This document shows, piece by piece, positions 7-6,798 of a DNA stretch of 6,883 bases. The stretch's first letter is position 1. Each line of letters opens with the position of its first letter. A program made the position numbers and the translations under genes. The notes under the pieces were generated by a model. The model was not told the DNA's origin, made no database searches, and was given only the letters and a program-made list of their open reading frames with translations. The stretch lies in the sequence record NC_002014.1, one strand, 5' to 3'. The stretch comes from Salmonella phage IKe.

Positions 7-1272
7 ATGATCGACATGCTGGTGTTAAGGATACCTTTTAAAAGCTCTCTTGTGTCGGAGCGTCTTGATTCTAAGGGAAATTATGTTTCCCATGTGAATC
101 TTGCTGAGGTTGCACGACTCTCCGGTCTGACTCTCGCAGCACATACCGTTGAATATGCCATTGATGGTGATTTAACTGTATCCGGCCTTAAGCATCCTTA
201 CGAATCTCTTCCGTCTCATTATGCGGGTATCGCGCTGAAAATTTTTGAGGGCGGTAAAAACTTCGAGCCTTGTGTAGAGTTGAAAGCATCTCCGGCGAAG
301 TTGTTACAAGGTCACAACGTTTTTGGCCCGACTTCCTTTGAATTGTGTGGATTGGAGTTTTTCGGCGCTTTTGCGGCGGCTATGCCTGAACTGTATGACT
401 TGTGCGATGTAACTAATACTGTAGTTGGTCGTATTGACGTTACATTTAGTGCAAAGGTTGCTAACGATCATATTGCTAATCAGGTCATTTCCTTCCTTCG
501 TAATGTTTCTAATGGTCAGACCAAAAAGACTCGCGCCCTTGATTATGAAACCACTGTTATGTGGAACGAAGGGAGTCGCCATCGTACCCTTGTTGCATAT
601 TTGAAACATCATGAGGTACAGGCTCAGATCAAGAGACTACAAAAAAAGAAAAGCTCTCATCTTACGATCTACGAAAAAAATTGCTTGGAAGTATTAAGCA
701 ATCCTGATTTGCAATTATATGCAGTTGGCCTTGTTAGATTTGAGGCTAGACTTCATACACGTTTTTTTGAAAATTTTGGCTTGCCTAGAAAGTTCTTTGA
801 TATAGTTAAATATCAAGATAATTATGAAAGTGGCTCATTTAATTTAATTTGTGACCTGTGGAAAAAATCGTTTAAAGATCTGTTTGATGCCTTTAAAGGT
901 TCTGATATGAATGTTTATGATGATTCTAAAGTTTATGATGCTTTAATAAATAACTTTTCTTCTGTTACTAAATCAGGCAATATTTCTAATTCCAAAGCTA
1001 ACCGTTTATTTGGTTTTTATCGTCGCTTGGTGAATGAAGGTTATGATAATGTAGCTCAAACGATGGAACGCACTACATTCTGGCGCTCTCTAAAGGAATT
1101 AACTTCTGTAGGTTTGTCAAAGGCTCAATTAATGAACCTTTCGACGGATAATAATGTAGTGCCGTTGGTTCAAATGATTAATGTTGATTTTTCTCAGCAA
1201 TATCCTGAATGGTATGTTGAACCGGTATCTATTTTTAATCGTTCTAATGTAGTCAGCATTAACGCTGCTTAA
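7..1272 (+). CDS. II: Gene II protein (pII), replication initiator: site-specific nickase/ligase for rolling-circle replication
   Basis: 421-aa ORF starting MIDMLVLR; N-terminus and long blocks (GHNVFG, SRHRTLVAYLKH, LVRFEAR, FGFYRRLVNEGYD, LMNLS..NNVVPLV..INVDFS) match M13/f1 pII from memory. TAA stop at 1270-1272. Confidence 0.95.
   Translation: MIDMLVLRIPFKSSLVSERLDSKGNYVSHVNLAEVARLSGLTLAAHTVEYAIDGDLTVSGLKHPYESLPSHYAGIALKIFEGGKNFEPCVELKASPAKLLQGHNVFGPTSFELCGLEFFGAFAAAMPELYDLCDVTNTVVGRIDVTFSAKVANDHIANQVISFLRNVSNGQTKKTRALDYETTVMWNEGSRHRTLVAYLKHHEVQAQIKRLQKKKSSHLTIYEKNCLEVLSNPDLQLYAVGLVRFEARLHTRFFENFGLPRKFFDIVKYQDNYESGSFNLICDLWKKSFKDLFDAFKGSDMNVYDDSKVYDALINNFSSVTKSGNISNSKANRLFGFYRRLVNEGYDNVAQTMERTTFWRSLKELTSVGLSKAQLMNLSTDNNVVPLVQMINVDFSQQYPEWYVEPVSIFNRSNVVSINAA
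907..1272 (+). CDS. X: Gene X protein (pX), in-frame internal translation start within gene II, C-terminal 121 aa of pII
   Basis: In-frame ATG at 907 (MNVYDDS), equivalent to the M13 pX start MNIYDDS; AAGG at 896-899 gives a 7-nt spacer. Same stop as gene II. Confidence 0.8.
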   Translation: MNVYDDSKVYDALINNFSSVTKSGNISNSKANRLFGFYRRLVNEGYDNVAQTMERTTFWRSLKELTSVGLSKAQLMNLSTDNNVVPLVQMINVDFSQQYPEWYVEPVSIFNRSNVVSINAA

Positions 1273-1295
1273 TTTAAATAATCGAGAGATATATT

Positions 1296-1562
1296 ATGTT
1301 AACTGTTGAAATTCACGATTCTCAAGTTTCTGTTAAAGAGCGCTCTGGCGTTTCTCAAAAGTCCGGTAAGCCTTATACTATTCGTGAGCAGGAAGCCTAT
1401 ATTGATCTCGGCGGCGTTTATCCTGCGCTGTTTAACTTTAATCTTGAGGACGGTCAGCAACCTTACCCCGCTGGCAAGTACCGTTTACATCCTGCATCTT
1501 TCAAGATTAATAATTTTGGTCAGGTTGCTGTTGGTCGCGTTCTGCTTGAATCGGTTAAATGA
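1296..1562 (+). CDS. V: Gene V protein (pV), ssDNA-binding protein
   Basis: 88-aa ORF (M13 pV is 87 aa). Motifs RSGVS..GKPY, DLG..YP and GxY..H..SFK align to M13 pV. GAGAG at 1284-1288 is 7 nt upstream of the ATG. Confidence 0.93.
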   Translation: MLTVEIHDSQVSVKERSGVSQKSGKPYTIREQEAYIDLGGVYPALFNFNLEDGQQPYPAGKYRLHPASFKINNFGQVAVGRVLLESVK

Positions 1563-1657
1563 GCATGACTAGTGACGATATAATTTATGTTGTATTTGCT
1601 CTTGGCCTTGTTGTTTCATTTGGGTTAGGTGCAATTACTGCTGGAGTGTTCCGATGA
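1559..1657 (+). CDS. VII: Gene VII protein (pVII), minor coat protein at the virion tip assembled first; 32 aa
   Basis: Short hydrophobic ORF (MSMTSDDIIYVVFALGLVVSFGLGAITAGVFR) directly after gene V. Its ATG at 1559-1561 overlaps the gene V TGA stop (1560-1562), the same position and size class as M13 gVII. An alternative start at ATG 1565 is possible. Confidence 0.75.
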   Translation: MSMTSDDIIYVVFALGLVVSFGLGAITAGVFR

Positions 1658-1755
1658 TTGATTATGTTGGTTCTTTCCTCGGTGCATATTTCTTGGGCTT
1701 TGCCCTCTTTTATGGAATTGGTTTTTTCAAATCAATTTCGAATCGTATCATTTAA
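1654..1755 (+). CDS. IX: Gene IX protein (pIX), minor coat protein; 33 aa
   Basis: ATG 1654-1656 overlaps the gene VII TGA (1655-1657) as ATGA. Product MIDYVGSFLGAYFLGFALFYGIGFFKSISNRII is hydrophobic, like M13 pIX. TAA stop at 1753-1755. Confidence 0.75.
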   Translation: MIDYVGSFLGAYFLGFALFYGIGFFKSISNRII

Positions 1756-1765
1756 GGAAAATAAA

Positions 1766-2014
1766 ATGCGTGTTCTCTCTACCGTTTTAGCTGCTAAAAA
1801 CAAAATTGCTCTGGGTGCTGCTACTATGCTGGTTTCTGCTGGTTCCTTCGCTGCTGAACCTAACGCAGCTACTAACTATGCTACCGAAGCAATGGACAGC
1901 CTTAAAACTCAGGCTATTGATCTCATTTCTCAGACTTGGCCTGTTGTAACGACTGTTGTAGTTGCTGGTCTTGTAATTCGCCTCTTTAAGAAGTTCTCTT
2001 CTAAAGCTGTTTAA
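1766..2014 (+). CDS. VIII: Gene VIII protein (pVIII), major coat protein precursor: 29-aa signal peptide plus 53-aa mature protein
   Basis: ATG at 1766 with AAGGA at 1754-1758. Signal peptide MRVLSTVLAAKNKIALGAATMLVSAGSFA, then mature AEPNAATNYATEAMDSLKTQAIDLISQTWPVVTTVVVAGLVIRLFKKFSSKAV, which matches the IKe major coat protein as I recall it. Acidic N-terminus, hydrophobic core and basic C-terminus are typical of pVIII. Confidence 0.95.
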   Translation: MRVLSTVLAAKNKIALGAATMLVSAGSFAAEPNAATNYATEAMDSLKTQAIDLISQTWPVVTTVVVAGLVIRLFKKFSSKAV

Positions 2015-2029
2015 TTTTCAGCGTTATTT

Positions 2030-2057
2030 AAGGGGCGCTATTGCGCCCTTTTTTTTA
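2030..2057 (+). terminator. Rho-independent terminator downstream of gene VIII
   Basis: GC-rich hairpin: aaggggcgc (2030-2038), loop tatt (2039-2042), gcgccctt (2043-2050), running into an 8-T tract (2049-2056). Same position as the strong central terminator of Ff phages. Confidence 0.85.
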
Positions 2058-2081
2058 CTTTAATTCAGCTAAGGCGTAATT

Positions 2082-3386
2082 GTGAAAAGAAAAATAATAG
2101 CAATTTCTTTATTTTTATACATCCCTTTGTCTAATGCTGATAATTGGGAGTCTATTACTAAAAGCTATTACACTGGCTTTGCCATTTCTAAAACTGTTGA
2201 ATCAAAAGATAAGGATGGTAAACCAGTTCGTAAAGAGGTTATAACTCAGGCTGATTTAACTACCGCCTGTAATGATGCTAAAGCCTCCGCACAAAATGTT
2301 TTTAATCAAATCAAGCTAACATTATCTGGTACATGGCCTAATTCTCAGTTTCGCCTTGTAACTGGTGATACCTGCGTTTATAACGGTTCGCCTGGTGAAA
2401 AAACTGAATCTTGGTCTATTCGCGCTCAGGTTGAGGGTGATATACAACGTTCTGTACCAGATGAAGAACCTTCTGAACAAACGCCAGAAGAAATTTGTGA
2501 AGCCAAACCTCCTATTGATGGCGTTTTTAATAACGTCTTTAAGGGTGACGAAGGAGGCTTTTATATTAATTATAATGGCTGTGAATATGAGGCAACTGGC
2601 GTTACTGTTTGCCAGAATGATGGAACTGTCTGTTCCTCCTCCGCTTGGAAGCCAACAGGTTACGTTCCCGAATCTGGAGAACCTTCCTCCTCTCCTCTGA
2701 AAGACGGTGACACTGGCGGTACTGGTGAAGGTGGTTCTGATACTGGCGGTGATACCGGTGGCGGTGATACTGGTGGTGGTTCTACTGGCGGCGATACTGG
2801 CGGTTCTTCTGGTGGCGGTTCGTCTGGTGGCGGTTCGTCTGGTGGATCAACTGGTAAATCACTGACAAAGGAAGATGTAACCGCAGCAATACATGTTGCT
2901 TCCCCTTCTATTGGTGATGCTGTTAAAGATTCTCTTACAGAAGATAATGACCAGTACGACAATCAGAAGAAAGCAGATGAACAATCAGCTAAAGCCTCTG
3001 CTTCTGTATCTGACGCTATCTCTGATGGTATGCGTGGCGTTGGTAATTTCGTTGACGATTTTGGCGGTGAGTCGTCGCAATACGGTACAGGCAATTCTGA
3101 AATGGATCTTTCCGTTAGCCTGGCTAAAGGGCAACTTGGAATTGATCGTGAGGGTCATGGTTCAGCTTGGGAATCTTTTTTAAATGATGGTGCTTTACGT
3201 CCCTCCATTCCTACTGGTCATGGTTGCACTAATTTTGTCATGTATCAGGGTTCTGTTTATCAGATTGAAATTGGCTGTGACAAATTAAATGATATTAAAT
3301 CAGTATTATCTTGGGTTATGTACTGTTTAACATTCTGGTATGTATTCCAGTCTGTTACTTCATTACTTCGTAAAGGTGAACAATAA
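2082..3386 (+). CDS. III: Gene III protein (pIII), minor coat / adsorption protein with signal peptide, receptor-binding N-terminal domains, Gly-rich linker and C-terminal membrane anchor
   Basis: GTG start at 2082 (M13 gIII also starts with GTG) with AAGG at 2071-2074. Signal peptide [19 protein letters not shown]. Gly/Ser/Thr/Asp-rich linker encoded around 2700-2860. Hydrophobic C-terminal anchor [21 protein letters not shown] stop at 3384-3386. Confidence 0.93.
2700..2860 (+). repeat. Gly-rich low-complexity linker of pIII, encoded by short tandem or near-tandem nucleotide repeats
   Basis: Repeated ggtgat/ggcgat-actggYggY units and an exact tandem duplication ggtggcggttcgtct (2811-2825 and 2826-2840), encoding DTGG and SSGGG repeats. 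Confidence 0.6.
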
Positions 3387-3736
3387 TGCCAGCTTTATTG
3401 GGTATACCGGCTTTAATTCGTTTTATTATGGGGCTTGTTCCCATTGCTATTGGTTACTTTGCTAAGTTTCTCGGAATGATAATTACTCGCAATGGGTTAA
3501 TGGCGTCCGCTTTAATTGGCGCTATTCTTTCAGTTGTTTCGTTTTCCATTCAGCTATTGGGTGATGCTTTATCATCTTCGATGGGTGGGATATCTGCTGA
3601 TTTTGGTAATTTAATGTCGTCTGTGTTACCTGATGGCACTACAACCTGTATTACAGTAATTATTACTACTAGAATTGCCGTTTTTGTTTTTGACATTAAA
3701 GATCGTTTACTCGGCATTGCTAATAAGGTTATTTGA
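3386..3736 (+). CDS. VI: Gene VI protein (pVI), minor coat protein at the pIII end of the virion
   Basis: ATG at 3386-3388 overlaps the gene III TAA by 1 nt. 116-aa hydrophobic protein beginning [13 protein letters not shown] (M13 pVI begins MPVLLGIPLLLRF). Confidence 0.88.
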
Positions 3737-3737
3737 T

Positions 3738-4835
3738 ATGGCTGTTTATGTTGTTACAGGTAAATTAGGTGCTGGTAAAACTCTGGTTGCTGTATCACGT
3801 ATTCAGCGCACATTAGCGAAAGGTGGCATTGTTGCCACCAATTTAAATCTTAAACTGCATCATTTTCCTCAAGTTGGAAGATATGCAAAACAATGCCGTG
3901 TTATGCGTATTGCTGATAAGCCAACTCTGGAGGATTTAGAATCTATTGGTCGCGGTAATTTAACTTATGATGAATCAAAGAATGGCTTATTAGTTCTTGA
4001 TGAATGTGGTACTTGGTTTAACTCAAGAAACTGGAGCGATAAATCAAGGCAGCCTGTTATTGATTGGTGTTTACATGCACGTAAATTAGGTTGGGATATT
4101 ATCTTTATTATTCAGGATATTTCTCTGATGGATAAGCAAGCGCGTGATGCTTTGGCTGAGCACGTTGTCTATTGTCGTCGCTTGGATAAATTGAATATAC
4201 CAATCATCGGTGGGTTAATATCTGTATTATCTGGTGGTAGATTACCGTTACCAAAAGTGCATTTTGGTATTGTTAAATATGGTGATAATCCTCAATCTTT
4301 AACTGTCGATAAATGGGTTTATACGGGTACAGATTTATATGCTGCTTATGACACTAAACAGATATTCACCAGTGACCGCGAGATAAGCCCTCCTTACTGC
4401 CCGCTTTCTCCTTATTATACTCATGGTATTTTTTCTGTAAAAAGGGATGCAAAATATTATATGCGCATGACTAAAATCTATTTCAAAAAAATGAATCGCG
4501 TTTTTTTAATGGCCTCTTTTCTTGCTCTTGGTGCTGCCTGTGGCATTTTTTATAAATCTCAAGCCTATTCTAATCAGCTTCAACATATCCAAGACAATTC
4601 TAAAACATCTGTGATCAGCAAAACCGATCAAAGCGCGGAAATATTACCTAGATTATCGATCAACTCATATTCTCAAATGGGTTATGATGTATCTGTTACG
4701 TTTAAAGACGCTAAAGCCAAAATCTATAACTCATTCGATTTGATTAAAGATGGTTATAGAGTGGATATTAAAGATGCGTGCCATGTAACCATTGTTAAGA
4801 AATCATATATACAACAAATTACTTGTGAAGGTTGA
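3738..4835 (+). CDS. I: Gene I protein (pI), inner-membrane assembly ATPase
   Basis: ATG at 3738 (MAVYVVTGKLGAGKTLV; M13 pI begins MAVYFVTGKLGSGKTLV). Walker A motif GKLGAGKT encoded at 3759-3782. Conserved blocks LLVLDECGTWFN, IDWCLHARKLGWDIIF and ALAEHVVYCRRLD. TGA stop at 4833-4835. The ORF-track start at 3675 is an upstream TTG extension. Confidence 0.93.
   Translation: MAVYVVTGKLGAGKTLVAVSRIQRTLAKGGIVATNLNLKLHHFPQVGRYAKQCRVMRIADKPTLEDLESIGRGNLTYDESKNGLLVLDECGTWFNSRNWSDKSRQPVIDWCLHARKLGWDIIFIIQDISLMDKQARDALAEHVVYCRRLDKLNIPIIGGLISVLSGGRLPLPKVHFGIVKYGDNPQSLTVDKWVYTGTDLYAAYDTKQIFTSDREISPPYCPLSPYYTHGIFSVKRDAKYYMRMTKIYFKKMNRVFLMASFLALGAACGIFYKSQAYSNQLQHIQDNSKTSVISKTDQSAEILPRLSINSYSQMGYDVSVTFKDAKAKIYNSFDLIKDGYRVDIKDACHVTIVKKSYIQQITCEG
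4461..4835 (+). CDS. XI: Gene XI protein (pXI), in-frame internal start within gene I; membrane assembly protein
   Basis: In-frame ATG at 4461 (MRMTKIYFKK) corresponds to the M13 pXI start (MKLTKIYLKK), followed by the transmembrane segment FLMASFLALGAACGIF. The SD is weak or distant, so the start is assigned by homology; ATG 4467 is an alternative. Confidence 0.7.
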   Translation: MRMTKIYFKKMNRVFLMASFLALGAACGIFYKSQAYSNQLQHIQDNSKTSVISKTDQSAEILPRLSINSYSQMGYDVSVTFKDAKAKIYNSFDLIKDGYRVDIKDACHVTIVKKSYIQQITCEG

Positions 4836-4837
4836 TT

Positions 4838-6151
4838 ATGAAATTACAGGCTGAAAAGAAATTAATTTTTGGGTATGTTGCTCTCTGTTTCCTTATGACA
4901 TTAGGCATTGCATTTAATGTTCTGGCTGATCCGGTCAATTTAAATAACGCTCCGGTGCGTTCGTTTGTGCAATGGTATTCGCAAAAATCTAATAAAGCTG
5001 TTGTTGTAAATCCTGATGTTAAAGGAAATATTACTGTATTTAATGCAGATGTTAATCAGGCCAATATTGATGATTTCTTTAAGTCTGTTCTTAACGCTAA
5101 TGGCTTTGTTCTTATGGCTGGTGATCCTTCAGGTGTGTCTACTCCGTCAAAGCTGCCTTCTCAACAGACCGATAATGATGATGATTATGAAGATTCCGCG
5201 GATTATGTTCCGGTTGGTGATTCTGTTCCGGTATCTGCCCAACCGCAAAAGCCTTTAGATCTTACCGTTCGCAATTTTAAGTTAACCCGCGTGCGTTCTT
5301 CTGACGTTCTTCCGCTTGCCAAAATCTTTGTCGATTCCAACGGTGGCGGCGATGTTATTGATTACCCAGGCAATAACAGCCTGTTGGTTTCTGGTTCTGC
5401 TGCTATCATGAATGCCCTGGCTGATTTCATTACGTCAATCGACGTTGCCCGTGATCAGGTTCTTATTCAGTCGCTTATGTTTGAAACCAGCTTAGTTAAT
5501 GGCGTGGATCTTTCTTTTGCTGCCGGTTCTGCTTCTGGTGATAAGGTCGCAGGCGGTTTCAATACATCTGCTCTTGGCACTGCACTTTCAACTGCTGGCG
5601 GTTCCTTCGGCATCTTTAACGGTAATGTTTTAGCGTTATCCATTCAGGCGGTAAAAAATGACTCTAATTCAAAAGTTATTTCTACCCCGCGCATCCTGAC
5701 GCAATCAGGTCAGACAGGTTACATCTCTGTAGGTCAAAATGTGCCGTTTGTCACTGGTAAGGTAACGGGTGAGGCTGCAAATGTTAACAACCCTTTCCAG
5801 ACCATTGAGCGCCGCGATGTTGGTGTTTCTCTTAAGGTGACGCCTGTTGTCATGGGTAATGGTCAGCTTGTTCTTACCATTGATACCAAAGCTGACTCCC
5901 TAACCAGTCAAATGACTGCTAGCGACATCATTACTAATCAGCGTCATATGCAAACGACAGTGCAGATAAAAGACGGTCAGACGCTTTTGCTTGGTGGTCT
6001 TATCGATTCCAATACAACTGACGGTAATCGCTCTGTACCTTGGTTTGAAAGCGTACCTGTGATTGGCTGGTTGTTCCGCAGCCATAGTGATTCGCATAAC
6101 GAAAGAACTATGTTTGTTCTCCTTACCGCGCACGTTATTAAGGCGCTTTGA
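4838..6151 (+). CDS. IV: Gene IV protein (pIV), outer-membrane secretin for phage extrusion
   Basis: ATG at 4838 (AAGG at 4827-4830), 3 nt after the gene I stop. N-terminal signal peptide, then blocks matching M13 pIV: LDFSFAAGS, SAGGSFGIFNG, STPRILT, VGQNVPFVTG.VTGE.ANVNNPFQTIER, DGQTLLLGGL. TGA stop at 6149-6151. Confidence 0.93.
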   Translation: MKLQAEKKLIFGYVALCFLMTLGIAFNVLADPVNLNNAPVRSFVQWYSQKSNKAVVVNPDVKGNITVFNADVNQANIDDFFKSVLNANGFVLMAGDPSGVSTPSKLPSQQTDNDDDYEDSADYVPVGDSVPVSAQPQKPLDLTVRNFKLTRVRSSDVLPLAKIFVDSNGGGDVIDYPGNNSLLVSGSAAIMNALADFITSIDVARDQVLIQSLMFETSLVNGVDLSFAAGSASGDKVAGGFNTSALGTALSTAGGSFGIFNGNVLALSIQAVKNDSNSKVISTPRILTQSGQTGYISVGQNVPFVTGKVTGEAANVNNPFQTIERRDVGVSLKVTPVVMGNGQLVLTIDTKADSLTSQMTASDIITNQRHMQTTVQIKDGQTLLLGGLIDSNTTDGNRSVPWFESVPVIGWLFRSHSDSHNERTMFVLLTAHVIKAL

Positions 6152-6600: not shown

Positions 6601-6798
6601 CTACAGCCCTCTCTCCTTCAAAACTCCTTCGATTGCTTCTTCAAGTTTATGTTTTATAAGATAATTTATCAGTTCTGATTTTTTTATAGGCAAACCAGCT
6701 CTTTTTGTTGCTTCGACAGTTGCCGTTACCAGTAAATTTTGCATGTGCCTATTGATAGTTACTGTAGTTCTACTGCCTCTTTTACCTAGTGTATTCAT
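6601..6798 (-). CDS. Hypothetical small basic protein (65 aa) encoded antisense in the intergenic region; putative ribbon-helix-helix (CopG/Arc/MetJ-like) DNA-binding protein
   Basis: Minus-strand ATG (plus 6796-6798), preceded on the minus strand by AGGA (plus 6807-6810) with an 8-nt spacer. The ORF stays open in AT-rich noncoding DNA. The product has a basic N-terminal tail, a predicted beta-strand (TTVTI), helix A (NRHMQNLLVTATVEATKRA), a G-containing turn (GLP) and helix B (KKSELINYLIKHKLEE), resembling the RHH pattern. No homology search was possible. Confidence 0.35.
   Translation of the reverse strand: MNTLGKRGSRTTVTINRHMQNLLVTATVEATKRAGLPIKKSELINYLIKHKLEEAIEGVLKERGL

What the first reader, a model, noticed from the sequence alone, without database searches (positions are those of the whole stretch)
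1559..1766. Tightly packed, translationally coupled small-gene cassette V-VII-IX-VIII
The gene V stop and gene VII start overlap (aATGa at 1559-1562). The gene VII stop and gene IX start overlap (ATGA at 1654-1657). The gene IX stop TAA (1753-1755) lies within the gene VIII Shine-Dalgarno AAGGA (1754-1758). Gene III stop and gene VI start also overlap by 1 nt (3384-3388). This implies that translation of the tiny minor coat proteins depends on upstream translation, a feature conserved with Ff and relevant if the cassette is engineered.
Basis: partly seen in the sequence, partly recalled or inferred. Interest (0 to 1): 0.2.

Follow-up and report, generated by a model that had tools for sequence, protein, structure and literature searches.

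The report
Phage IKe minor-coat gene junctions
This is the well-studied gene V-VII-IX-VIII block of filamentous phage IKe; the gene overlaps are real, but they are ordinary and already known, and published experiments on this phage indicate that gene VII depends only slightly on upstream translation.

Summary
The window is the complete genome of phage IKe. It is 6883 nt long, and pV, pVII and pIX are identical to the deposited IKe proteins.

Two corrections:
- **Gene VII start.** The ATG at 1559 is the deposited start (32 aa), but only IKe-type genomes have it. In PEar phages, an E. coli plasmid, a Tatumella-type contig and an IMG/VR contig, gene V runs on (TCA/TCT where IKe has TGA). The pVII start in those genomes, and in I2-2, a Klebsiella plasmid and a Salmonella/E. 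coli prophage, aligns with the second in-frame ATG (1565), 2 nt past the gene V stop.
- **Overlap does not prove dependence.** Gene VII has no Shine-Dalgarno (SD) sequence, but genes IX (GGAG), VIII (UAAGGA) and VI (AGGUGA) do. A 2025 review reports that changing IKe gene V translation barely affects gene VII. Tight V-to-VII and VII-to-IX coupling was shown for f1/M13.

The VII/IX overlap is conserved across three genera, and the gene IX ribosome-binding site sits in a partly conserved predicted hairpin. Coupling of IX to VII is therefore plausible but untested for IKe. The stop-inside-SD feature is lineage-specific.

Verdict: already known, low interest.

The parts
1296..1562 (+). Gene V (ssDNA-binding protein pV, 88 aa); stop TGA at 1560-1562
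   Evidence: ORF. Pfam PF02303, 82.9 bits. Sequence identical to IKe G5P.
1559..1561 (+). First in-frame ATG ('ATG1'), overlapping the gene V stop as ATGA. This is the deposited IKe gene VII start (32 aa) but it is found only in IKe-type genomes.
   Evidence: Absent in PEar, Ec572, L006/L007/L013 and L014, where the triplet is ATC or AGT. The single base G1561 creates both this ATG and the TGA stop.
1565..1657 (+). Gene VII read from the conserved ATG ('ATG2', 30 aa), 2 nt after the gene V stop. Minor coat protein pVII; no Shine-Dalgarno.
   Evidence: Start alignment across relatives. Pfam PF19978, 63.2 bits. phrog_19107 matches residues 2-30 to profile positions 1-29 of 29. No SD of 4 or more Watson-Crick pairs.
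1566..1568 (+). Second TGA, in frame with gene V (TGA GCA TGA). It is the gene V stop in PEar-type relatives, where it overlaps ATG2 as ATGA.
1592..1638 (+). Predicted mRNA hairpin 1 inside gene VII, ending about 15 nt before the gene IX AUG
   Evidence: Fold of 1590-1700 gives z = -3.8, with 0 of 200 shuffles folding as well. The consensus helix is 95% paired with 2 compensatory pairs in 6 sequences.
1640..1683 (+). Predicted mRNA hairpin 2, which pairs the gene IX SD (1643-1646) and AUG (1654-1656)
   Evidence: 92% of cells paired, 1 compensatory pair. The unfolding cost of the gene IX ribosome-binding site is 9.0-10.7 kcal/mol, the highest (60-nt context) or second-highest after gene X (120-nt context) in the genome, and similar to f1 gene IX.
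1643..1646 (+). GGAG Shine-Dalgarno for gene IX, 7 nt before the AUG, lying inside gene VII codons for Ala-Gly-Val
   Evidence: GGAG, GGGG or GGGGG sits at the same place in all relatives, including f1.
1654..1755 (+). Gene IX (minor coat protein pIX, 33 aa). Its ATG overlaps the gene VII stop as ATGA (1654-1657); stop TAA at 1753-1755.
   Evidence: Identical to IKe G9P. phrog_28333, E = 1e-23. Protein conserved in I2-2, Klebsiella p4, the Salmonella element and L014.
1753..1758 (+). UAAGGA: the gene VIII Shine-Dalgarno, which contains the gene IX stop codon
   Evidence: The arrangement is shared by PEar, Ec572, L006/L007 and L014, but not by I2-2, Klebsiella p4 or the Salmonella element.
1766..2014 (+). 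Gene VIII (major coat protein precursor, 82 aa)
   Evidence: Pfam PF19199, 97.7 bits.
2030..2051 (+). Intrinsic-terminator-like hairpin plus T run, closing the V-VII-IX-VIII transcription unit
3374..3388 (+). Gene III/VI junction: AGGUGA SD (3374-3379), then TAATG (3384-3388, a 1-nt overlap)
   Evidence: The identical junction is found in PEar4 and I2-2; f1 and If1 have +2 spacing.

Best explanation
The region is the gene V / VII / IX / VIII block of filamentous phage IKe. It is read from polycistronic mRNAs that end at the terminator at 2030-2051. The junctions act as a step-down and step-up device for translation.

1. **Gene V** is translated heavily and stops at UGA 1560-1562.
2. **Gene VII** most likely starts at the conserved AUG 1565, 2 nt downstream. 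It has no Shine-Dalgarno, so it receives very few ribosomes. They come from weak independent initiation plus an inefficient hand-over from ribosomes terminating gene V. The AUG at 1559 is a by-product of the single base (G1561) that also created the early gene V stop in the IKe lineage.
3. **Gene IX** starts at an AUG overlapping the gene VII stop (AUGA). It has a GGAG SD, but both SD and AUG are predicted to be paired in a hairpin. It is therefore probably opened, or re-initiated on, by the rare ribosomes finishing gene VII, as was shown for f1. This keeps pIX as scarce as pVII.
4. **Gene VIII** has its own strong, unstructured UAAGGA site 10 nt further on and initiates independently at high level. 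That this SD contains the gene IX stop is incidental.
5. **Gene VI** likewise has a strong AGGUGA SD in front of its 1-nt overlap with gene III.

Shown here: the sequence features, their conservation, SD strengths and predicted folds. Taken from second-hand accounts of the literature: weak coupling of VII to V in IKe, and tight coupling in f1. Inferred: the use of AUG 1565 and the coupling of IX to VII in IKe.
For: - **Identity.** The proteins exactly match IKe entries. The 6883-nt length equals that of IKe. The closest records are PEar phages at 92% and I2-2.
- **Start of gene VII.** ATG2 is conserved while ATG1 is not, in nine related sequences from about six lineages.
- **Ribosome-binding sites.** Gene VII has no SD. 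Gene IX has GGAG at 7 nt, gene VIII UAAGGA at 7 nt, gene VI AGGUGA at 6 nt. Unfolding costs are 9-10.7 kcal/mol for IX and about 5 for VIII. The f1 genes show the same pattern.
- **Hairpins around the gene IX start.** z = -3.8. 93% of cells are paired, against 40-51% in slid controls, with 3 compensatory pairs.
- **VII/IX overlap.** It is conserved at -4 or -1 in IKe, PEar, I2-2, Klebsiella p4, the Salmonella/E. coli prophage, L014, f1 and If1.
- **Literature.** f1/M13 gene VII is coupled to gene V from an inherently defective site. f1 VII-to-IX coupling works through a hairpin. IKe gene V translation level has little effect on gene VII.
- **From my memory, not retrieved here.** The abstract of Yu et al. 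2001 (Mol Microbiol 42:821) describes the IKe gene VII AUG as two nucleotides beyond the gene V stop, which matches 1565. It also gives a coupling efficiency of about 1% and says the site has weak intrinsic activity.
Against: - The deposited IKe annotation and UniProt use ATG 1559, and nothing here excludes its use. It lies in the same frame and within reach of a terminating ribosome.
- The hairpin evidence rests on 6 sequences from about 3 lineages, and on a structure derived from those same sequences. In the Salmonella element the single-sequence fold differs.
- No experiment on IKe gene IX, VIII or VI coupling was found.
- The two primary IKe papers could not be read. Their content is known only through citing papers and my memory.
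Confidence: 0.8

Rival explanations
1. Gene VII starts at ATG 1559 inside ATGA, and genes VII, IX, VIII and VI are translated essentially only by ribosomes handed on from the upstream gene. This would be strict termination-reinitiation along the cassette, as in Ff.
For: The ATGA and TAATG motifs are present. The deposited annotation uses 1559. Gene VII lacks an SD. Strict V-to-VII coupling is documented for f1/M13. Spacings of -4 and -1 are the classic coupling spacings.
Against: For IKe, gene V translation changes barely affect gene VII, and the 1998 IKe paper is cited for independent downstream translation. ATG 1559 is missing in close relatives. Genes IX, VIII and VI have good SD sequences, and gene VIII's site is unstructured. 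An ATGA overlap does not guarantee full coupling, as the sigR-rsrA pair shows.
Confidence: 0.12
2. The overlaps are simply genome compaction in a size-limited ssDNA phage and have no regulatory role. Each gene is expressed from its own initiation site, and low pVII and pIX levels come only from weak sites.
For: The whole genome is about 98% coding between 7 and 6151, and all junctions are short. V/VII, IX/VIII and III/VI spacings drift freely between relatives. IKe gene VII is largely independent of gene V.
Against: The VII/IX start-stop overlap is held at -4 or -1 across three genera whose cassette DNA gave no match in the distant search (f1/If1 vs IKe). The gene IX site is buried in a hairpin whose pairing is maintained. 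Coupling of IX to VII was demonstrated in f1.
Confidence: 0.15
3. Both AUGs (1559 and 1565) are used, giving 32-aa and 30-aa pVII isoforms. The first would be used by ribosomes terminating gene V and the second by free 30S subunits.
For: Both are in frame and within 5 nt of the UGA. 32-aa forms are called in several Salmonella and Citrobacter phage copies with MSM, MTM or MSMN N-termini.
Against: Those are gene-caller outputs, not protein data. Neither AUG has an SD. Relatives function without the first AUG.
Confidence: 0.15

Closest known systems
Phage IKe genes V-VII-IX-VIII (Peeters et al. 1985 genome; Steege laboratory translation studies 1998 and 2001)
   Same: It is the same object. pV, pVII and pIX are identical to the IKe entries and the genome length is 6883 nt.
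   Different: Nothing differs in sequence. The only point of difference is which ATG is called the gene VII start: database entries use 1559, while comparative data here, and the Steege papers as I recall them, point to 1565.
Ff phages (f1/M13/fd) gene V-VII-IX-VIII cassette
   Same: Same gene order, tiny hydrophobic pVII and pIX, and a VII/IX ATGA overlap. Gene VII has no SD, and a G-rich SD for gene IX lies in the last gene VII codons. The unfolding costs of the gene VII and IX sites are similarly high.
   Different: In f1, V/VII is TAA-C-ATG (+1) and tightly coupled, whereas IKe is reported as only marginally coupled. IX/VIII is an ATGA overlap in f1 and If1 but +10 with a separate SD in IKe. 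III/VI is +2 in f1 and -1 in IKe. The cassette DNA gave no match to Ff in the distant search.
Lineavirus relatives: I2-2, PEar1/2/4/6, and plasmid or prophage copies in Klebsiella, Salmonella and E. coli
   Same: Homologous pVII, pIX and pVIII. VII/IX overlap of -4 (or -1). III/VI TAATG preceded by AGGTGA.
   Different: Gene V ends at a different place in nearly every lineage: -11, -4, -1, +2 or +3 relative to the conserved pVII ATG. The gene IX stop is separate from the gene VIII SD in I2-2, Klebsiella p4 and the Salmonella element.
Generic prokaryotic translational coupling at NTGA (-4) and TAATG (-1) junctions
   Same: These are the same spacing motifs, which are the commonest in bacteria and archaea.
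   Different: Here coupling would serve to keep expression very low (3-5 copies per virion, from general knowledge) rather than to equalise subunit amounts. For V-to-VII in IKe, coupling is reported to be nearly absent.

Membership tests
Phage IKe (Lineavirus) genome | Protein sequences identical to the deposited IKe proteins | tested here: met
   Exact look-up finds pV (CAA26069.1), pVII (CAA26070.1, NP_040573.1, P03676) and pIX (CAA26071.1), all named Salmonella phage IKe.
Phage IKe (Lineavirus) genome | Genome length of 6883 nt and gene order II-X-V-VII-IX-VIII-III-VI-I-IV | tested here: met
   The window is 6883 nt. The IKe length is given as 6883 nt in PMC7697814. ORF order comes and agrees with the PEar and I2-2 annotations. 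The IKe nucleotide record itself is not in the searched phage collection.
Pfam PF19978 Inovirus_G7P_2 (pVII) | Score above the curated cut-off | tested here: met
   63.2 bits against a cut-off of 27.
pIX of IKe-type filamentous phages (phrog_28333) | Profile match over the full length, and position between genes VII and VIII | tested here: met
   E = 1e-23 over 1-33 of 33, in the position shown. No Pfam or NCBIfam model matches.
Translationally coupled gene pair (termination-reinitiation) | Co-oriented ORFs with the stop and start overlapping or within a few nucleotides | tested here: met
   V/VII -4 or +2, VII/IX -4, III/VI -1, VI/I +1, I/IV +2.
Translationally coupled gene pair (termination-reinitiation) | Downstream translation falls when upstream translation is blocked or moved away | not testable with these tools
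   This needs reporters. Secondary accounts say IKe gene VII is little affected by gene V translation. No data were found for IKe IX, VIII or VI. The dependence is shown for f1 V-to-VII and VII-to-IX.
Translationally coupled gene pair (termination-reinitiation) | The downstream site has little independent ribosome-binding capacity (no SD, or a masked one) | tested here: inconclusive
   Gene VII has no SD. Gene IX has an SD that is predicted to be masked. Genes VIII and VI have strong SD sequences, and gene VIII's is accessible.
Coupling by RNA unfolding (f1 VII-to-IX type) | A stable hairpin within the upstream gene that occludes the downstream ribosome-binding site | tested here: inconclusive
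   Two hairpins at 1592-1638 and 1640-1683; z = -3.8. 93% of cells paired and 3 compensatory pairs, but only 6 sequences, and the structure was derived from them.

The most novel reading that the evidence does not exclude
The tandem ATGA-GC-ATGA at 1559-1568 may be a functional two-state junction. A single C/G change at 1561 moves the gene V stop between -4 and +2 relative to the conserved gene VII AUG, and at the same time creates or removes a second AUG. IKe-type phages would then make a 32-aa pVII isoform by reinitiation in addition to a 30-aa form. This substitution could also contribute to the much weaker V-to-VII coupling in IKe than in f1. UGA read-through to the second in-frame UGA (1566-1568) could further modulate hand-over.
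Probability: 0.12. Interest if true: 0.25.

Novelty: already known. Interest (0 to 1): 0.08.

Why it matters
There is little new here. The IKe genome and its overlapping small genes were published in 1985, and the translation of this cassette was examined experimentally in f1 and IKe between 1987 and 2001.

The practical value is a caution for anyone engineering or re-annotating the cassette:
- The database start of IKe gene VII (1559) is probably 6 nt too early.
- Overlap motifs should not be read as proof of dependence. For IKe gene VII, published experiments point the other way.
- Only the VII/IX junction, with its hairpin-embedded SD, is conserved strongly enough to suggest it must be preserved when recoding.

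Tried and rejected
- **Key papers not held.** Madison-Antenucci and Steege 1998 (PMC106909) and Yu et al. 2001 could not be read. I relied on what citing papers say and on my flagged memory of the abstracts.
- **First SD scan discarded.** The scan with a gapped duplex against a 13-nt anti-SD gave bulged pairings at unrealistic spacings. I replaced it with an ungapped scan restricted to 3-13 nt spacing.
- **Collection scans gave little.** The pVIII scan of genome contigs returned one 799-bp contig. The pV scan of metagenome contigs returned nothing. The viral-contig scans added L007/L013 and L014; L015 and L016 were too distant to place genes VII and IX.
- **Databases with no match.** NCBIfam gave no hits for any cassette protein, and Rfam gave no family in the window.
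- **Promoter scan uninformative.** It found 5 sites against 2.4 +/- 1.7 expected. The one at 1724-1751 would start transcription too close to the gene VIII SD to be its promoter, so I did not use it.
- **No fold at the V/VII junction.** z = -1.0 in IKe and +1.1 in PEar4. Structure therefore does not explain the weak gene VII site.
- **In-frame TTG extension of gene VIII rejected.** The 1658-2014 ORF (118 aa) is closed by a stop in PEar and Ec572.
Full report
**What the window is**

The 6883-nt window carries the standard filamentous-phage gene set in one orientation:

| Gene | Coordinates |
|---|---|
| II | 7-1272 |
| V | 1296-1562 |
| VII | 1559 or 1565 to 1657 |
| IX | 1654-1755 |
| VIII | 1766-2014 |
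| III | 2082-3386 |
| VI | 3386-3736 |
| I | 3738-4835 |
| IV | 4838-6151 |

An exact-sequence look-up finds the window's pV, 32-aa pVII and pIX under the name Salmonella phage IKe (CAA26069-71, NP_040573.1, UniProt P03676). A paper on PEar phages gives the IKe genome length as 6883 nt. The IKe record is not in the searchable phage collection. The nearest records there are Erwinia phages PEar1/2/4/6 (92% identity over 91-95% of the window) and I2-2 (86% over 1581-4843).

Family checks agree with this identification:
- pV matches PF02303, pVII matches PF19978 and pVIII matches PF19199.
- pIX matches phrog_28333 and pVII matches phrog_19107.

**Checking the observation**

All four junction statements are correct at the stated coordinates.
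- 1559-1568 reads ATGAGCATGA. The gene V stop is TGA 1560-1562 and an ATG lies at 1559-1561.
- 1654-1657 reads ATGA, formed by the gene VII stop and the gene IX start.
- The gene IX stop TAA (1753-1755) overlaps AAGGA (1754-1758). Read as UAAGGA, the SD contains the whole stop codon. The gene VIII ATG is at 1766.
- Gene III and gene VI meet as TAATG at 3384-3388.

The rest of the genome is packed just as tightly. Spacings are II/V +23, VIII/III +67 (this gap holds the terminator-like hairpin at 2030-2051), VI/I +1 and I/IV +2. About 98% of 7-6151 is coding.

A single ATGA is not surprising, since 26% of all TGA triplets in the window are preceded by A. Spacings of -4 and -1 are the commonest in prokaryotes generally.

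**Which ATG starts gene VII**

There is a second in-frame ATG at 1565. The relatives show the following:

| Genome | Sequence around the junction | First ATG present? | Gene V stop relative to the 1565-equivalent ATG |
|---|---|---|---|
| IKe (window) | AAATGAGCATGA | yes | +2 |
| PEar1/4/6 | AAATCAGCATGA | no | -4 (ATGA) |
| E. coli 572 plasmid | AAGTCAGCATGA | no | -4 (ATGA) |
| Tatumella-type contig (L006/L007/L013) | AAGTCTGCATGA | no | -4 (ATGA) |
| IMG/VR contig L014 | AAATCATAATGA | no | -1 (TAATG) |

In the relatives gene V is one or two codons longer, and pVII begins at the ATG equivalent to 1565. The more distant pVII proteins also align with the 1565 start:
- I2-2: MSDELIHVV, spacing -11
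- Klebsiella p4: spacing +3
- Salmonella/E. coli prophage: MDDVIQIL, spacing +2

The PHROG profile for this protein is 29 positions long and matches residues 2-30 of the 30-aa form.

So G1561 is a single base that creates both the early TGA stop and the first ATG in the IKe lineage. Three other lineages have a serine codon (TCA or TCT) at that position, so the IKe state looks derived. This polarity is an inference.

From memory, the abstract of Yu, Madison-Antenucci and Steege (2001) describes the IKe gene VII AUG as two nucleotides beyond the gene V stop codon. That fits 1565 exactly, but I could not retrieve the paper. The deposited 32-aa annotation is therefore probably 6 nt too long. Use of 1559 cannot be excluded from sequence alone.

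**Ribosome-binding sites**

I scanned for ungapped pairing to the 16S rRNA 3' end at 3-13 nt spacing.

| Gene | SD | Spacing | Cost to unfold -15..+5 (kcal/mol) |
|---|---|---|---|
| VII (either ATG) | none of 4 or more Watson-Crick pairs | - | 7.0-8.6 |
| IX | GGAG | 7 nt | 9.0-10.7 |
| VIII | UAAGGA | 7 nt | about 5 |
| VI | AGGUGA | 6 nt | 6-8 |

The unfolding cost for gene IX is among the highest of the IKe genes: highest in the 60-nt context, and second to gene X in the 120-nt context. The f1 genome gives the same pattern when treated the same way. Its gene VII has no usable SD and costs 10.3 to unfold, gene IX has GGGGGU and costs 9-10, and gene VIII costs 3-5.

The V/VII junction has no significant fold: z = -1.0 in IKe and +1.1 in PEar4. 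Weak gene VII initiation is thus a property of the site itself, as was concluded for f1.

**Structure around the gene IX start**

The segment 1590-1700 folds into two hairpins at -33.1 kcal/mol, with z = -3.8 and none of 200 shuffles folding as well.

On an alignment of IKe, PEar4, Ec572, I2-2, Klebsiella p4 and the Salmonella element, the consensus keeps two helices:
- Helix 1, 1592-1607 with 1622-1638: 95% of cells paired, two pairs with changes on both sides.
- Helix 2, 1640-1656 with 1665-1683: 92% of cells paired, one compensatory pair. This helix pairs the GGAG SD and the AUG of gene IX.

Overall, 93% of cells are paired, against 40-51% when partners are slid by 1-3 columns. This is suggestive only. 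There are six sequences from about three lineages, the structure was derived from them, and the region is also under protein-coding constraint. It does parallel the hairpin that Blumer et al. (1987) invoked for f1, where gene IX translation depends on ribosomes traversing gene VII.

**Conservation of the junctions**

| Junction | IKe group | f1 / If1 |
|---|---|---|
| V/VII | -11 to +3 across lineages | +1 / +2 |
| VII/IX | -4 (ATGA); -1 (TAATG) in the Salmonella/E. coli prophage | -4 / -4 |
| IX/VIII | +10 IKe, +11 PEar, +12 L014, +13 I2-2 and Klebsiella p4, +19 Salmonella element | -4 / -4 |
| III/VI | TAATG preceded by AGGTGA (IKe, PEar, I2-2) | +2 / +2 |

The stop-inside-SD arrangement occurs only in the IKe/PEar/L014 lineage. 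Only the VII/IX junction is a conserved feature shared with Ff.

**What the literature says about coupling**

- For f1/M13, gene VII has an inherently defective site that works only by coupling to gene V, at about 10% of gene V's level.
- For f1, gene IX is coupled to gene VII.
- For IKe, a 2025 review summarises Yu et al. 2001. Altering the elongation rate of gene V, or the number of ribosomes completing it, had little impact on gene VII translation.
- Yoo and RajBhandary cite Madison-Antenucci and Steege 1998 for a downstream gene that is translated independently and is unaffected by intercistronic distance.
- From memory, those abstracts report weak intrinsic activity of the IKe gene VII site and about 1% coupling.
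- An ATGA overlap in general does not guarantee full coupling, as the sigR-rsrA pair shows.

**Mechanism proposed**

1. Gene V is translated at a high level.
2. Translation drops sharply at the SD-less gene VII start (AUG 1565). Ribosomes arrive by weak independent initiation plus inefficient hand-over from gene V.
3. Gene IX is translated mainly by, or thanks to, the few ribosomes finishing gene VII. They either reinitiate at the AUGA or open hairpin 2.
4. Gene VIII initiates independently and strongly at UAAGGA.
5. Gene VI uses its own AGGUGA, with the 1-nt overlap possibly adding some coupling.

Steps 1 and 2 rest on second-hand accounts of the literature plus the sequence. Step 3 is inferred by analogy with f1 and from the predicted folds. 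Steps 4 and 5 are inferred from SD strength and accessibility.

**Verdict**

It holds for Ff and is plausible for IKe gene IX. It is contradicted by published work for IKe gene VII, and it is not implied by the sequence for genes VIII and VI. Novelty: already known. Interest: low.

Noticed in passing
window 6601-6798, minus strand: A 65-aa ORF (MNTLGKRGSRTTVTINRHMQ...) lies on the opposite strand in the large intergenic region. It has no Pfam or NCBIfam match and a weak match to phrog_2503 of unknown function (E = 2e-7). It is present at 71% amino-acid identity in PEar4, but tblastn finds it in none of the other loci then held (PEar1, PEar6, I2-2, f1, If1 and the partial loci). It therefore looks like a variable accessory gene.
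   Followed up: partly
window 1560-1568: Gene V has two in-frame stops, TGA GCA TGA. The second is the functional gene V stop in PEar-type relatives. UGA read-through in IKe would add two residues and terminate exactly on the conserved ATGA.
   Followed up: partly
window 1658-2014: The gene VIII reading frame stays open upstream through all of gene IX, giving a 118-aa ORF from TTG 1658. PEar4 and Ec572 have a stop in this frame, so it is probably not meaningful.
   Followed up: yes
window 1643-1646 and the equivalent position in relatives: A G-rich run (GGAG, GGGG or GGGGG) sits 5-8 nt before the gene IX AUG in every phage examined, including f1. It encodes the conserved Ala-Gly-Gly/Val near the pVII C-terminus. 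The same bases therefore appear to serve as both protein codons and SD.
   Followed up: partly
L010 (NZ_CP183160.1), L008 (NZ_CP132687.1), L009 and L011: IKe and I2-2 relatives occur as 'plasmids' in clinical isolates. The E. coli 572 plasmid pCREC572-6 is 14,488 bp with two matching places, possibly a dimeric replicative form. The Klebsiella p4 plasmid is 6,814 bp. More distant copies (about 66% identity) match in 53 of 5,426 complete E. coli genomes, almost all on chromosomes. Gene IX is not annotated in the four RefSeq/PLSDB records inspected.
   Followed up: partly
L006 (NZ_JTDN01000010.1, 799 bp): A 799-bp contig in a Croceibacterium mercuriale (alphaproteobacterium) assembly matches the Tatumella-associated IMG/VR phage contig in the three junction stretches I compared. 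This is probably contamination of that assembly.
   Followed up: no
window 2082 and 2700-2860: Gene III starts with GTG, preceded by UAAGG, as in Ff. It contains a long Gly/Ser/Thr-rich repeat linker (GGDTGG..., GGSSGG...).
   Followed up: no
L001 and L005 (PEar4, PEar6): Gene IV is annotated as truncated in PEar4 (4845-5990) and split into two ORFs in PEar6 (pIVa and pIVb), unlike the intact 437-aa pIV in this window.
   Followed up: no
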